From Escherichia phage vB_EcoS_HdH2, in the sequence record NC_048748.1: 64,000 nt of DNA; one strand, 5' to 3'. The position numbers and the translations under genes were made by a program. Below, in pieces: positions 26,470 to 55,079 of the stretch. The notes beneath the pieces are model-generated. The model saw nothing but the letters and a program-made list of their open reading frames with translations, ran no database searches and was not told where the DNA came from. Positions within the stretch are counted from its first letter, which is position 1, and each line of letters begins with the position of its first letter.

Positions 26470-26548
26470 ATTACCTCCATTAAGTCTTTTAAATTAACCT
26501 AATGTGGATGAATTTTATTATACATAAATTATTTACCTGTATATAGAA

Positions 26549-26582
26549 AAACCCCAGACTACTTATTCAATAGCTGGGGTTT
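26549..26582 (-). terminator. Rho-independent terminator (minus strand)
   Basis: aaaccccagctattgaataagtagtctggggttt hairpin. Confidence 0.5.
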
Positions 26583-26590
26583 GTTATTAA

Positions 26591-26905
26591 TCACAGATCG
26601 GGGCGTTCATCTTCGAAACAGCCTGAGCTAATTCCTTCTCCGAATCCTACAAAGCCATCAAATTCATCATTTGAAATATCCGTAATCATTGCTTCCATTT
26701 TCCTAATTTCCGAGGTTTTCATCCCTGCTTTACTATTCTTAAAGTGTTTGCGAGGATTCCCACACATCCAACAAGAACAGATACAAGGAGTAGTAGTGAT
26801 AATACCTAACCGTTTAGGGCTTTCTTCATGTGGGAAGACTGTCCAGTATTTCTTGCGGTTGTTCTTCACACGTTGCCGGTGATGACGTCTTAATGCTCGA
26901 TCCAC
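26591..26905 (-). CDS. Cys-rich hypothetical protein
   Basis: 104 aa; CICSCWMC motif. Confidence 0.4.
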   Translation of the reverse strand: MDRALRRHHRQRVKNNRKKYWTVFPHEESPKRLGIITTTPCICSCWMCGNPRKHFKNSKAGMKTSEIRKMEAMITDISNDEFDGFVGFGEGISSGCFEDERPDL

Positions 26906-26986
26906 ACATTTCTCCTAAAACTTGGGAGATAAATGGAGTTTGCTCGACTACCTTACGTAGTTCGTAGAAACCGTATCCAAGCCCCA

Positions 26987-27355
26987 TTACATCGCCTGAG
27001 TAAATGTACGACTAATAACATCGTTCTGTTGTTCACGCGTCAGTGCATTAAAACGTACAGCGTACCCTGAAACACGGATAGTTAATTGAGGGTATTTTTC
27101 AGGATGTTTCTGTGCATCCAAAAGCTGATCACGACTTAACACATTGACGTTTAGGTGTTGACCACCTTCAATTTGAGGGGCGACTTCCACCTTGACTTCA
27201 CGAAAGGACTCTGGGTCAAAGTGAGGTGTGATACCTTCTAGATCCTCAACTAGAACTTTTTGTTTAAGTTCACCATCTTTAGAGTATAATTGAATAATCT
27301 GATTATTATGAACAATATTAATTACGCCAGATTTAAGATTTTGGTACGCTTTCAT
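26987..27355 (-). CDS. grcA: Autonomous glycyl radical cofactor GrcA/YfiD-like
   Basis: C-terminus [10 protein letters not shown]...[20 protein letters not shown] closely matches E. coli GrcA (as recalled) including RVSGY; start trimmed to MKAYQ (about 123 aa). Confidence 0.7.
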
Positions 27356-27540
27356 TAGATCTCCTGTTTGGTAGTTAGTAGTGGATTTGAACCACTGTAG
27401 TCGCTCCGTATGAAGGAGGTGCATAACCACTCTGCCAACTAACTATTATGTTTTACTAGACTAAGTAAGTATTCTTTATACTCTTTAGACCAATTAGCTT
27501 TTTTAAACTTTCCTGGACGCATAGTCTTAATTCCTAAATT

Positions 27541-27617
27541 TGGTACTCCGGGAGGGATTTAAACCCCCGATCTCTCGGTTATCAGCTGAGTGCTTTAGAT
27601 CGCTAAGCTACCGAAGC
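27541..27617 (-). tRNA. tRNA, anticodon GAT (Ile) by manual fold
   Basis: Encoded CCA; acceptor with 2 G-U; T arm GGGGG/TTTAAAT/CCCTC. Confidence 0.45.
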
Positions 27618-27632
27618 ATTAAAATATTTACA

Positions 27633-27938
27633 TCACACACTGTCTAAGTAAGAAGTATAATGGAATTTAGTTTCTCCAGTCTTATCTACTTCTACCTCAG
27701 TTCGTGGTACTTGACGCACTATACCATGAATCATCTTATAGCGAATGCCTTTAGCTGGTTCATGATCTTTTGGAAATACTTGTTTAACCGTTACTACTTT
27801 ATACTCTTCACGCGGGGTTAGCACAACTACTTGATCACCTTCTTTGATTTTCCAAGAAGATGGAAATTCATAGGTATATCTTTGGCCACTAGTTTGGAAT
27901 ACTACAGAAAGATAACGTTTCATTTGGTTTCCTCTCAT
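27633..27938 (-). CDS. hypothetical protein
   Basis: 101 aa. Confidence 0.45.
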   Translation of the reverse strand: MRGNQMKRYLSVVFQTSGQRYTYEFPSSWKIKEGDQVVVLTPREEYKVVTVKQVFPKDHEPAKGIRYKMIHGIVRQVPRTEVEVDKTGETKFHYTSYLDSV

Positions 27939-27996
27939 TAATTTATATAAATATTATAGCAATAAATAAGAGAGAAAGCAAATGAATTTTTAAATT

Positions 27997-28071
27997 TGGT
28001 GCTCCCACCAGGAATCGAACCCGGTTCCACGGTTTACAAGACCGTTGCATCGCCAGCAATGCTTTAAGAGC
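27997..28071 (-). tRNA. tRNA-Thr (anticodon TGT)
   Basis: GGTTCGATTCC T-loop, CCA encoded, loop CTTGTAA. Confidence 0.55.
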
Positions 28072-28463
28072 TATCGTTGTCTTGTTGAAACTCTATTTCT
28101 GGCCCTATGCGTAGGGGTCATAGAGTGACAGTTAGGGCAGAGAATCTTTAGATTTTCTGGAGAACAGTTAGTTGCATCTCCATCTATATGATCTACCTCA
28201 GTTAAAACTGCTCCGTCAATTGGATGTTTCCCATCCCAACCACATACTTCACAAGCAGTACCACGAGTATCCCACAGCCACTTCCTAACAAAAGGTTTTA
28301 ATTGTGCAGCTTTACCAGTATAACCAGGTTCTTCACCTGCCAACCACTTTAATACTTTTTGCTTTGTCTGGTACTCCTGCTGACAAGCAGGACCACAATA
28401 CTTACCTGCGGAGCCCCTACTTTTAGGTTTTGTGATTCCGCAATTTAAACAAGTAAACTCCAT
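28071..28463 (-). CDS. HNH endonuclease
   Basis: EVDHIDGDATNCSPENLKILCPNCH HNH core plus N-terminal Cys-rich region. Confidence 0.65.
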   Translation of the reverse strand: MEFTCLNCGITKPKSRGSAGKYCGPACQQEYQTKQKVLKWLAGEEPGYTGKAAQLKPFVRKWLWDTRGTACEVCGWDGKHPIDGAVLTEVDHIDGDATNCSPENLKILCPNCHSMTPTHRARNRVSTRQR

Positions 28464-28628
28464 GTTGCTTCCTATTTCAACGGGATTTCTTTTTCAATAA
28501 CGGGAGACTTATCAGTCATAACTGCCATAGCCAACTGCTGAAGAAACTCGAAAGTTAGCTTTAAGCGTTCTTCGCCTAATTCAACCTCAACGTATTTCTT
28601 TTGTTTGTCAACCTTTAATTTTAGGTTA

Positions 28629-28850
28629 TCAGCCATCTTCGGATTCTCGTTGCTCGGCTACTGCTAGCCAGTCTGGTAAAAGAAACTTAGTACGAAACTC
28701 TTCATAAGATTCTTCTGGATAAAAGCTAAAACCTCCTTTCTCATCATTCAAGATAACAGAGCCGTCAGTTTGTTCATATGCTCGATATGTTTCTCCAATA
28801 ATGATAACTCGCTTATCAGTACTTTTATTACGAAACTCAAAAACGTGCAT
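28629..28850 (-). CDS. hypothetical protein
   Basis: 73 aa. Confidence 0.4.
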   Translation of the reverse strand: MHVFEFRNKSTDKRVIIIGETYRAYEQTDGSVILNDEKGGFSFYPEESYEEFRTKFLLPDWLAVAEQRESEDG

Positions 28851-30362: not shown

Positions 30363-30441
30363 TTGGTGGAGAATAACGGAATCGAACCGTTCTGATGTCC
30401 TCGGTGCAAGCGAGGTGTCCACTCCATGCAGACCCATTCCC
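30363..30441 (-). tRNA. tRNA-Ala (anticodon TGC)
   Basis: Anticodon arm CCTCG/CTTGCAC/CGAGG, T-loop TTCGATT. Confidence 0.5.
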
Positions 30442-30700
30442 CAAATTCTTTAGTTTACTAAGGCTATTAGCTCGGCGTAACTACAGCACCTTCGCTTCGA
30501 GCGGAAGGAACCGCGTCATCTCGCAAACCCGATACACTATTCAGTTGCCATGAATCTAGTGGACTAATCTAGAACTTCTCCCAAATCGTAGGGATCGTGC
30601 TTTTTGGCAGCCAGTCCTAGGTCGAGCTAATACCTTAGTGAACTATGATGAGGATTTCTCCCCATCAATTTATATAAATATTATAACAAGAAATTAAGCA

Positions 30701-35428: not shown

Positions 35429-35506
35429 TGGTGGCTCCCCGAGGATTCGAACCTACGTACCTTCCGGTTATGAGCCGGGTGCTCATACCATATGAGCTTG
35501 AGAACC
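35429..35506 (-). tRNA. tRNA-like with CAT anticodon; T stem has a bulge
   Basis: Acceptor GGTTCTC/GGGAGCC pairs with G-U; loop CTCATAA. Confidence 0.35.
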
Positions 35507-53107: not shown

Positions 53108-55079
53108 ATGAATCGCAATGAAGAACTAAAGTATAAAGAAATGCAGGCGTTAATTAGAAACTGCAAAGAGATTATCGAAGGGTCAGCAGATGAAGAGCTG
53201 CTGTTTAATAATGCCAATAAACCCTCAGAACGTTTCCCTACACAAAGGGATATGCTTGCAGGTGAATTGAGTAAGTATCTGATTCTAGAAGAAATGCCAA
53301 TTCAGATTCGAAATGCTCATATGATTGGGGATATTCATTTCCATGATGCTGATTATGCTGCATTAGGCATGACTAACTGTTGCCTGGTAGCTCTGGAAGA
53401 TATGTTGAAGAATGGTATGAAGGTTGGTAATGCTGAAATTAGCACTCCAAACTCTATCACTACTGCGGCGGCTATCACTGCTCAGATTATCACTCAAGTT
53501 AGCTCCCATCAGTATGGTGGTACTTCTGTAGACCGATTAGATGAAGTATTGGCTCCTTATGTTCGTAAGTCTTATGATAAGAATCATGCGTTTGCAAAAC
53601 GTTGGACTAAGGATGAAGCCAAAGCATCCGTAATGGCTACGGAGATGACTGAAAAAGAAGTCTATGATGCTTGTCAAGGTTTAGAATATGAAATCAATAC
53701 CATGTTCAACTCTAATGGTCAGAGCCCATTTATTACCTTTGGTTTTGGTCTAGGGACTTCTTGGGAAGCTCGTCTAGTACAGAAAGCAATACTGAAAGTA
53801 CGTATGGATGGTTTAGGTATCAATAAACGTACAGCTATCTTTCCGAAACTGGTGTTTGTTCTGCGTGATGGCGTAAATATGAAGCCAGGAGATGTTAATT
53901 ATGACATCAAGAAGTTAGCTATGAAATGTACTGCTGAACGTATGTATCCCGACTATATCAGCTACGATAAGGTTGTGGAAGTTACTGGTGACTATAAAGT
54001 TTCTATGGGCTGCCGTTCATTCCTAGCTGCTACAGAAGATGGTGAAACTGCAGGTCGTAATAACTTAGGTGTTGTTTCTGTAAACTTGCCTAGAATTGCT
54101 ATCGAAGCTGAAGGGAATATTGATCTATTCTTTGATTTGCTTGAGCTACGTGTGGATACAGCGTTAAAAGCATTGGAGTGGAGAGTTGATCGCTTAAAAT
54201 ACATTCAAGCTAAAGCCGCGCCCATCCTCTATATGTCAGGAGCCTTTGGGTTACGCTTGGGGCCTGATGAATATGTATTCGATCATTTCTATAACCGTGC
54301 TTTTATGCAGGTCTCGGACATTGTGTCTACATCTTTGCCAAACATGAACTGTAGCATTTCATGGCAACCAATATACCCTAGAGATACAGAAGCACCGTTC
54401 TGTATCTCTAGGGTATATTGGTTGCCATGAAATGCTACAGTTCATGTTTGGCAAAGATGTAGACACAATGTCCGAGACCTGCATAAAGTTTGTTCAGCGT
54501 GTATTGCAGTACATGCGAGATAGAGTCGATCAGAAGAAGGAAGAAACTAAGTTAGGTTATAGCCTGTATGCTACACCATCAGAATCCCTATGTGACCGTT
54601 TTTGTCGTCTAGACCGGGAATATTTCCCGGAGCATGAAGATATTCTGTCCAAAGGATACTACACTAACTCTCACCACCTTGATGTGGAACGTAAAGTTGC
54701 TCCTAACGTGAAATTTGATTATGAATCTAACTTTACTCCTATTGCTTCTGGTGGGTGTATTTCCTATGTAGAACTACCGGATATGAAACGATTCCCAGAT
54801 GCACTGGAATGGGTTATTAATTATGCTGCTAGTAAAGTTCATTACTTCGGTATTAATACTCCAGTGGATTCTTGTGGTAAATGTGGATTCTTAGGTGAAA
54901 CAATAGCATCCGAAGATGGGTTTAAGTGCCCTATCTGTGGTAATCATGACCCAGAAACTCTTGAAGTAACTCGTCGAGTTTGTGGATATCTTGGAAATCC
55001 AGGTGCTCGTCCATTTAACCCTGGCAAACAGCACGAGGTTATGGGCAGGGTGAAACACCAGGATATTCGAGCTAAATAA
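53108..55079 (+). pseudogene. nrdD: Anaerobic ribonucleotide reductase NrdD, reading frame split at 54302-54398 by an inverted duplication
   Basis: ORFs 53108-54430 and 54432-55079 match the N- and C-terminal parts of NrdD (C-terminal CPICG/RVCGYLG glycyl-radical region); removing 97 nt restores one frame. Confidence 0.7.
54302..54487. repeat. Perfect palindrome: 88-bp arms (54302-54389 and 54400-54487) around a 10-bp spacer
   Basis: Right arm is the exact reverse complement of the left arm, verified base by base. Confidence 0.85.

What the first reader, a model, noticed from the sequence alone, without database searches (positions are those of the whole stretch)
26987..27355. Phage-encoded GrcA/YfiD-like autonomous glycyl radical cofactor
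The C-terminal 60 residues ([10 protein letters not shown]...[20 protein letters not shown]...) are near-identical to E. coli GrcA as I recall it, including the RVSGY glycyl-radical loop. GrcA repairs oxygen-damaged pyruvate formate-lyase, so a phage copy suggests maintenance of host anaerobic metabolism during infection, in line with the phage nrdD. The high identity points to recent capture from an enterobacterial host.
Basis: partly seen in the sequence, partly recalled or inferred. Interest (0 to 1): 0.5.

Follow-up and report, generated by a model that had tools for sequence, protein, structure and literature searches.

The report
T5 phage GrcA-like glycyl radical protein
This is the already catalogued phage T5 copy of the small "spare part" protein that can replace the oxygen-broken radical tip of the host enzyme pyruvate formate-lyase; it is an old, phage-adapted gene rather than a recent theft from the host.

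Summary
The ORF is real: window 26987-27355, minus strand, 122 aa, with an AGGAG ribosome-binding site. It sits 14 nt downstream of tRNA-Met in the tRNA region of a T5-like phage. The protein is 100% identical to phage T5 gene T5.056.

Its C-terminal 62 residues are a PFL-type glycyl radical domain with an exact RVSGYAV loop (Pfam 3.6e-18; E. coli GrcA structure 6OWR 1.6e-30; PflB 4.8e-27). Among 28 distinct T5-like alleles dN/dS is 0.065, so the gene is maintained.

The best reading is a GrcA/YfiD-type spare part. It would be activated by host PflA and would rescue O2-cleaved host PflB, as shown biochemically for the T4 homologue Y06I.

- The C-terminus is 77% identical to E. coli GrcA and 79% to PflB, not near-identical.
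- Capture was not recent. DNA identity is about 70%, third codon positions about 42%, GC3 is phage-like, and no named cellular homologue among the 120 listed hits exceeds about 81%.

Recent exchange does hold for T4 vs.6, which is 98% nt-identical to grcA over 185 nt.

The phage nrdD exists but is interrupted here by a 97-nt inverted duplication. This is ordinary and already known.

The parts
26987..27355 (-). CDS of the GrcA-like protein (122 aa plus TAA stop), identical in protein sequence to phage T5 T5.056
   Evidence: ORF list and sequence. It is 100% aa and 96.5% nt identical to T5.056.
26990..27175 (-). C-terminal glycyl radical domain, residues 61-122, equivalent to PflB 698-759 and GrcA 66-127
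   Evidence: HMMER alignments to 6OWR and 1H16/1CM5. 34 invariant columns across 76-78 homologues. dN/dS 0.016. The AF2 model of this half matches 6OWR and 2PFL.
27065..27067 (-). Codon of Gly97, the predicted radical-bearing glycine in RVSGYAV (equivalent to PflB G734 and GrcA G102)
   Evidence: Reverse complement of 27056-27079 reads IRVSGYAV. G97 is invariant in alignments A1-A3.
27176..27355 (-). N-terminal half, residues 1-60, phage-type and strongly diverged from bacterial GrcA
   Evidence: It is not matched by the GrcA model TIGR04365. hhalign against the jumbo/T4-type N-halves gives probability 76%, E 2e-5. Against bacterial GrcA N-halves only residues 50-61 align. dN/dS 0.10. AF2 predicts beta strands with pLDDT about 87.
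27361..27365 (-). Shine-Dalgarno sequence AGGAG, 5 nt upstream of the ATG
   Evidence: Read directly from the sequence.
27369..27444 (-). tRNA-Met (CAU) immediately upstream, co-oriented with the gene
   Evidence: ARAGORN and Rfam. The arrangement is the same in T5.
27541..27617 (-). tRNA-Ile (GAU), in the same transcription unit
27633..27938 (-). First ORF of the unit (101 aa, T5.058 homologue, PHROG 4760, function unknown)
27953..27981 (-). Sigma-70-type promoter TTGCTT-17 nt-TATAAT, at the position of T5 promoter P11
   Evidence: Read from the sequence. The position corresponds to the promoter P11 annotated in T5. The simple scan missed it because the -35 hexamer matches only 3 of 6.
26591..26905 (-). 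Downstream ORF (104 aa, T5.055 homologue, Cys-rich, PHROG 4499/6828, function unknown)
26546..26582 (-). Intrinsic terminator hairpin followed by UUUUUCU, which ends the unit
   Evidence: RNA fold -19 kcal/mol, z -4.6. It matches the position of the terminator annotated in T5.

Best explanation
[quoted passage not shown] It is transcribed from an early sigma-70 promoter together with phage tRNAs.

The proposed mechanism has three steps, all inferred by homology.
1. The 122-aa protein binds host pyruvate formate-lyase whose C-terminal 25 residues have been lost through O2 attack on the Gly734 radical.
2. Its C-terminal 62 residues take the place of the PflB 698-759 module.
3. Host PflA (PFL-AE) installs a radical on Gly97 within the exact RVSGYAV recognition sequence, and the radical is passed to PflB Cys419. 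This restores acetyl-CoA and formate production.

T5-type phages destroy host DNA early in infection (general knowledge of T5, not tested here). The host could then neither induce its own grcA nor remake PflB, so a phage-supplied spare part would keep fermentative energy and acetyl-CoA supply running during infection in microaerobic, gut-like conditions.

Shown here: homology, conserved motif, purifying selection, operon anatomy, and the absence of any phage PflA or PflB body in the window. Radical installation, binding to cleaved PFL and any benefit to the phage are inferred.
For: Motif and homology:
- The C-terminal domain matches 6OWR (GrcA, E 1.6e-30) and PflB (E 4.8e-27) with [10 protein letters not shown] intact.
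- Pfam Gly_radical E 3.6e-18.
- 34 invariant columns, including G97, across 76-78 phage and bacterial homologues.
- Full-length match to PHROG 1209, with 52% overall identity to T4 vs.6.

Precedent: YfiD and T4 Y06I are the two biochemically validated PFL spare parts (PMC8683613, citing Wagner 2001).

Selection and spread:
- dN/dS 0.065 over 378 pairs of 28 distinct T5-like alleles. The comparison with T5 itself shows 13 synonymous and 0 non-synonymous differences.
- 427 phage records are at least 90% identical.

Dependence on the host: tblastn with E. coli PflA, NrdG and PflB finds no activase and no PFL barrel in the 64-kb window.

Expression signals: the RBS, promoter and terminator are consistent with expression.

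Structure: the AF2 model has mean pLDDT 79.5 and its C-half superposes on YfiD and PFL.
Against: - No experiment on the T5 protein was found in the searchable literature.
- The protein scores below NCBIfam's equivalog cut-offs for GrcA (121.5 against 170), GrcA3 (116 against 158) and GrcA2 (91 against 145).
- Its first 50 or so residues cannot be aligned directly to bacterial GrcA. In YfiD the N-terminal half matters for binding cleaved PFL and for activation (PMC8683613).
- 14 of 62 C-terminal residues differ from both host proteins, so the fit to PflB is assumed, not shown.
Confidence: 0.78

Rival explanations
1. A recently captured host grcA (or pflB 3' end) that has not yet diverged.
For: The glycyl radical loop and its flanks are identical to the host proteins. 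Such capture or conversion clearly does happen in T4-like phages: the last 185 nt of T4 vs.6 are 98% identical to E. coli K-12 grcA, and 633 phage records are 95-99% identical.
Against: - For this gene, nt identity to grcA and pflB is 69-71% and third-position identity is 42%.
- Only 44-45% of identical residues use the same codon.
- GC3 is 0.29, against 0.41 for grcA and 0.59 for pflB.
- The best E. coli DNA hit is 73% over 186 nt, and it is to pflB, not grcA.
- No named cellular protein among the 120 listed hits from the 5.8-billion-sequence search is above about 81% in the C-terminal domain.
- The alleles have diverged within T5-like phages to dS as high as 0.99.
Confidence: 0.03
2. A spare part for a glycyl radical enzyme other than PflB. 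Candidates are the phage's own NrdD, or host TdcE or another PFL-family enzyme.
For: The phage carries an nrdD with its own glycyl radical domain. The authors of PMC8683613 speculate that spare parts for other glycyl radical enzymes may exist. TdcE is a close PflB paralogue (general knowledge), so it could be an additional target.
Against: There is no detectable similarity to the NrdD C-terminal ORF (BLASTP E 0.69). The domain is 79% identical to PflB 698-759, but matches other PFL-family enzymes only at E 1e-12 or weaker. TdcE would be an extra target, not an alternative one.
Confidence: 0.06
3. A decoy or inhibitor. The phage protein would soak up PflA activity or occupy PFL to shut down or redirect host pyruvate metabolism, rather than repair it.
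For: The N-terminal half is phage-specific and conserved (dN/dS 0.10). AF2 predicts it to be folded, unlike the disordered YfiD N-terminus. That could mean altered binding behaviour.
Against: Every residue invariant in functional GrcA and PflB, including G97 and the RVSGYAV activase site, is kept under very strong constraint (dN/dS 0.016). A decoy would not need a radical-competent glycine. The T4 homologue, which has a related phage-type N-half, restores activity.
Confidence: 0.08
4. A non-functional remnant or annotation artefact in the variable tRNA region.
For: The region is mosaic, with HNH endonuclease insertions. GenBank names for the gene are inconsistent, including hypothetical protein, acetyltransferase-related and pyruvate formate-lyase.
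Against: dN/dS is 0.065 with no frame disruption in 30 loci. The RBS is good. The gene is conserved in more than 400 T5-like genomes.
Confidence: 0.01

Closest known systems
Phage T5 gene T5.056 (YP_006884.1, 'putative acetyltransferase-related protein') and its orthologues in Tequintavirus and other Demerecviridae
   Same: The protein is 100% identical and the DNA 96.5% identical. The position is the same: promoter P11, T5.058, tRNA-Ile, tRNA-Met, the gene, T5.055, terminator. Several relatives already name it 'autonomous glycyl radical cofactor' (VAH1, T5_ev219, falkor).
   Different: Nothing of substance differs. There are only 13 synonymous substitutions relative to T5.
Phage T4 Vs.6 / Y06I (biochemically validated phage spare part for PFL)
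   Same: Same size (120 aa against 122). Same two-part build and the same MKAYQ start. Same PHROG 1209, with 52% overall identity.
   Different: The T4 C-terminal module is 97% aa and 98% nt identical to E. coli grcA, which indicates recent exchange with the host. The T5-type module is an old phage-adapted lineage: 79% aa and 71% nt identity to T4's. The N-halves are only weakly related (hhalign probability 76% over residues 31-61).
E. coli GrcA / YfiD (P68066; PDB 6OWR)
   Same: A stand-alone protein of 122-127 aa. The C-terminal glycyl radical domain has the [10 protein letters not shown] loop and is 77% identical over 62 residues.
   Different: It falls below the NCBIfam equivalog cut-off. 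N-terminal residues 1-49 are not alignable directly. It carries the phage-type signature DAQ where named bacterial GrcAs have DAV, DAI or DAA and PflB-type C-termini have DAM. It has AT-rich phage codon usage.
C-terminal glycyl radical domain of E. coli pyruvate formate-lyase PflB (residues 698-759)
   Same: 79% identical over 62 residues, and PflB is the best DNA-level match in E. coli (73% over 186 nt).
   Different: The phage protein lacks the entire 10-stranded barrel and the Cys418/Cys419 active site. It scores 86 bits against a cut-off of 994 for TIGR01255. The GenBank names 'pyruvate formate-lyase' and 'formate acetyltransferase' are therefore misnomers.

Membership tests
GrcA/YfiD autonomous glycyl radical cofactor (NCBIfam TIGR04365) | Small stand-alone protein (about 120-130 aa) without the PFL catalytic barrel | tested here: met
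   The ORF is 122 aa. There is no PflB-body homology anywhere in the window.
GrcA/YfiD autonomous glycyl radical cofactor (NCBIfam TIGR04365) | C-terminal PFL-type glycyl radical domain with the RVSGY(AV) loop | tested here: met
   Pfam PF01228 gives 66.5 bits against a cut-off of 22.2. G97 is invariant.
GrcA/YfiD autonomous glycyl radical cofactor (NCBIfam TIGR04365) | Whole-protein score above the curated equivalog cut-off | tested here: not met
   121.5 bits against a cut-off of 170, and only residues 50-122 align. It is also below the cut-offs for GrcA3 (116 against 158) and GrcA2 (91 against 145).
GrcA/YfiD autonomous glycyl radical cofactor (NCBIfam TIGR04365) | N-terminal half homologous to that of bacterial GrcA | tested here: inconclusive
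   The direct profile comparison aligns only residues 50-61 (probability 2.7%). A transitive link exists: T5-type to jumbo/T4-type at probability 76%, and jumbo/T4-type to bacterial at probability 93%, E 3e-7. The T5-type profile is shallow (Neff 1.26).
GrcA/YfiD autonomous glycyl radical cofactor (NCBIfam TIGR04365) | Glycyl radical installed by PFL-activating enzyme, and activity restored to O2-cleaved PFL | not testable with these tools
   This has been shown only for YfiD and T4 Y06I (PMC8683613). The PFL-AE recognition sequence RVSGYAV (known from the literature, recalled) is intact here.
Phage Vs.6/Y06I-like family (PHROG 1209) | Full-length match to the family profile | tested here: met
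   E 5.8e-48, residues 1-122 on profile positions 1-121 of 121.
Pyruvate formate-lyase / formate C-acetyltransferase (TIGR01255), as many GenBank records name it | About 750-aa barrel with the Cys418/Cys419 active site, and a score above the cut-off | tested here: not met
   Only profile positions 683-744 match, at 86 bits against a cut-off of 994.

The most novel reading that the evidence does not exclude
T5-like phages, together with jumbo phages and some Vibrio phages, may carry an old, phage-specific lineage of GrcA. Its N-terminal half would be a folded beta domain rather than the disordered tail of E. coli YfiD. That could give it different recognition behaviour, for example docking on PFL before damage, faster recruitment of PflA, or use on TdcE. 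T4-like phages instead keep re-copying the host's C-terminal module. Phages would then have two distinct evolutionary strategies for the same spare part.
Probability: 0.12. Interest if true: 0.4.

Novelty: already known. Interest (0 to 1): 0.15.

Why it matters
It matters little as a discovery. The identical protein is in the reference T5 genome and is already labelled GrcA in several relatives. The kind was validated for T4 in 2001.

Three modest points are of use.
- Many GenBank names for it are wrong ('pyruvate formate-lyase', '2-ketobutyrate formate-lyase', 'acetyltransferase-related protein', 'ribonucleotide reductase subunit').
- It is a clean example of a widespread phage auxiliary gene (more than 1,500 phage records) that supports host fermentation in oxygen-fluctuating habitats such as the gut.
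- The contrast between the ameliorated T5-type gene and the host-identical T4-type module shows that 'conserved motif' must not be read as 'recent transfer'.

Tried and rejected
- A neighbour-joining tree of the 62-residue domain (78 distinct sequences, 200 bootstraps) places the T5 type with jumbo-phage sequences. Every relevant node has under 5% support, so I do not rely on the topology. A first attempt with Biopython bootstrapping timed out.
- The simple promoter/terminator scan found nothing relevant on the minus strand. Both were then read directly, checked against T5 annotation and checked by folding.
It was rerun without them.
- The afdb50 fold library was unavailable. The PDB and BFVD searches gave no significant fold match for the N-terminal half.
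- Literature searches for T5 or Tequintavirus combined with GrcA, glycyl radical or PFL returned nothing relevant.
- Rfam found only tRNAs, so there is no intron in nrdD.
- I considered and rejected a role as spare part for the phage NrdD.

Full report
**What is there.** On the minus strand an ORF runs from ATG 27355 to TAA 26987-26989 and encodes 122 aa. An AGGAG sequence lies 5 nt upstream of the ATG (27361-27365). The longer GTG-started ORF in the mechanical list (to 27430) would run through tRNA-Met (27369-27444) and is not credible.

The window is a T5-like phage. The region 26500-28000 is 96% identical to phage T5 and to many Salmonella and Escherichia Tequintavirus genomes. The protein is 100% identical to T5.056 (YP_006884.1), with 13 synonymous and no non-synonymous differences.

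**Is the similarity real?** Yes.
- Pfam Gly_radical: E 3.6e-18, 66.5 bits against a cut-off of 22.2.
- The best solved-structure relative is E. coli GrcA/YfiD (6OWR, E 1.6e-30), followed by PflB (E 4.8e-27).
- The NCBIfam GrcA model gives E 2.5e-35.
- The reverse complement of 27056-27079 reads IRVSGYAV, so Gly97 (codon 27065-27067) is the counterpart of PflB G734 and GrcA G102.

'Near-identical' is too strong. Over the last 62 residues the protein is 77% identical to E. coli GrcA, 79% to PflB 698-759 and 79% to T4 Vs.6. At positions where GrcA and PflB differ, it sides sometimes with one, sometimes with the other, and often with neither.

**Family placement.** The whole protein matches PHROG 1209 end to end (E 5.8e-48). 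That is the phage family containing T4 Vs.6/Y06I, to which it is 52% identical overall.

It does not reach NCBIfam's equivalog cut-off for GrcA (121.5 against 170 bits), because only residues 50-122 align. Profile comparisons of the N-terminal halves give:
- jumbo-phage/T4-type against bacterial GrcA: clearly homologous (probability 93%, E 3e-7);
- T5-type against jumbo/T4-type: related over residues 31-61 (probability 76%, E 2e-5);
- T5-type against bacterial GrcA: only the last 12 residues align.

So the N-half is probably a very diverged GrcA N-half, linked through phage intermediates. This is not proven, and the T5 profile is shallow.

AF2 with a 76-sequence alignment gives mean pLDDT 79.5. 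The C-half superposes on YfiD and PFL. The N-half is predicted as beta strands at pLDDT about 87 and has no significant fold match in PDB or BFVD. In E. coli YfiD the N-half is disordered by NMR, yet it is important for binding cleaved PFL and for activation (PMC8683613).

**Is it functional?** Among 28 distinct alleles from T5-like genomes (loci L007-L035 plus the window):
- mean dS is 0.40 (maximum 0.99) and mean dN is 0.026, giving dN/dS 0.065;
- dN/dS is 0.016 for the C-half and 0.10 for the N-half;
- no allele has a disrupted frame.

tblastn finds 427 phage records at 90% identity or more, and 1,582 phage records with a homologue overall. These include T5-like, T4-like, jumbo, Aeromonas and Vibrio phages.

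**Expression context.** The unit reads, in order:
- a TTGCTT-17-TATAAT promoter (27981-27953), at the position of T5 promoter P11;
- a 101-aa ORF (27938-27633);
- tRNA-Ile and tRNA-Met;
- the GrcA-like gene;
- a Cys-rich 104-aa ORF (26905-26591);
- a hairpin terminator (26582-26546; -19 kcal/mol, z -4.6).

The gene therefore belongs to the early, tRNA-rich region. The neighbouring ORFs have no known function.

**Mechanism.** YfiD and T4 Y06I are the two validated 'spare part' proteins. After O2 cleaves PFL at the Gly734 radical, the small protein binds, is radicalised by PFL-AE, and restores catalysis (PMC8683613 citing Wagner et al. 2001; radical transfer from GrcA G102 to PflB C419, PMC12338860).

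The window protein keeps all 34 columns that are invariant across phage and bacterial homologues, including RVSGYAV. The window encodes no PflA, NrdG or PFL barrel. The phage protein must therefore work with host PflA and host PflB.

The biological rationale is inference: T5 destroys host DNA early, so the host could neither induce grcA nor replace PflB. Confidence that this is a working PFL spare part is about 0.78.

**Origin.**
- DNA identity to E. coli grcA is 69% and to pflB 71% over the 186 conserved nucleotides.
- Third positions are 42% identical, and only 44-45% of identical residues share a codon.
- GC3 is 0.29 in both halves of the phage gene, against 0.41 for grcA and 0.59 for pflB.
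- The best E. coli DNA match is 73% over 186 nt, and it is to pflB.
- In a search of 5.8 billion proteins, the 120 best hits were listed. After the T5-like group (88-98%) the score drops from 226 to 132 bits. The next relatives are jumbo phages (SE_PL, K64-1, fHe-Yen9-03), 330-360-kb contigs and Vibrio phage D479. Named bacterial GrcAs (Vibrio, Aeromonas, Photobacterium) reach at most about 81% in the C-domain.
- Phage-type sequences share DAQ/EAQ, where named bacterial GrcAs have DAV, DAI or DAA and PflB-type C-termini have DAM.

An NJ tree groups the T5 type with the jumbo-phage set but with no bootstrap support, so I claim only 'old and phage-adapted'.

By contrast, the last 185 nt of T4 vs.6 are 182/185 identical to E. 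coli K-12 grcA. The similarity starts abruptly at the EGG codons, and 633 phage records, those listed being T4-like genomes of about 160-190 kb, are 95-99% identical to that host segment.

**nrdD.** The supporting remark about a phage nrdD needs a caveat. nrdD is present (53108-55079) but split into 440-aa and 215-aa ORFs. The cause is a perfect 90-nt inverted repeat with a 6-nt loop (54302-54391 and 54398-54487). No other phage record has it (best coverage 81%). Deleting 54302-54398 restores a 624-aa NrdD that is 100% identical to that of phage slur09. Rfam sees no intron. It is either a fold-back assembly artefact or a fresh inverted duplication. The GrcA-like protein has no similarity to the NrdD radical domain.

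**Verdict.** The functional interpretation is reasonable and matches existing annotation and the T4 precedent. The evolutionary interpretation is wrong for this phage. The feature is already known, and interest is low.

Noticed in passing
window 54302-54398 (within nrdD, 53108-55079, + strand): nrdD is interrupted by a 97-nt insertion that forms a perfect 90-nt inverted repeat with the following native sequence (arms 54302-54391 and 54398-54487, 6-nt loop). Removing it restores a 624-aa NrdD that is 100% identical to phage slur09 NrdD. No other phage record carries it. It is either a fold-back assembly artefact or a very recent inverted duplication.
   Followed up: yes
L005:4179-4363 (T4 vs.6 3' part) versus L003 (E. 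coli K-12 grcA): T4 vs.6/Y06I is a chimera. It has a phage-type N-half joined to a C-terminal module that is 182/185 nt identical to E. coli grcA, with the similarity starting abruptly at the EGG codons. 633 phage records (those listed being T4-like genomes of about 160-190 kb) are 95-99% identical to this host segment. This indicates recent or recurrent exchange with the host gene.
   Followed up: yes
L006:7962-9686 (T5 reference nrdD, NC_005859): The reference T5 NrdD (574 aa) is 50 aa shorter than NrdD of slur09 and of the repaired window (624 aa). It lacks the segment HFYNRASVSLGYIGCHEMLQFMFGKD...RDRVD between DEYVFD and QKKEETK. This is a deletion of a conserved part of the enzyme in the reference strain or sequence.
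   Followed up: partly
proteins P0113, P0116, P0097, P0099, P0078, P0106: Several 127-aa GrcA-sized proteins from metagenome or isolate assemblies have C-terminal 62 residues identical or nearly identical to the PflB C-terminus rather than to GrcA. Others look chimeric. This suggests gene conversion between grcA and pflB within bacterial genomes.
   Followed up: no
window 28071-28463 (-): A 130-aa HNH endonuclease ORF (Pfam HNH and HNH_3) sits between tRNA-Thr and the 54-aa ORF at 28472-28636. In T5, tRNA-Thr is followed directly by a 54-aa ORF (T5.059). This looks like an extra homing-endonuclease insertion in this phage's tRNA region.
   Followed up: partly
window 27176-27355 (residues 1-60 of the protein): AF2 predicts the N-terminal half as a beta-strand domain at pLDDT about 87. 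The equivalent half of E. coli YfiD is reported as disordered by NMR. No fold match was found in PDB or BFVD.
   Followed up: partly
window 35432-35506 and 39722-39793 (-): Rfam's tRNA model reports two tRNA-like hits (40.3 and 35.5 bits) that ARAGORN did not call. ARAGORN calls tRNA-Ala at 30364-30442, which Rfam did not list.
   Followed up: no
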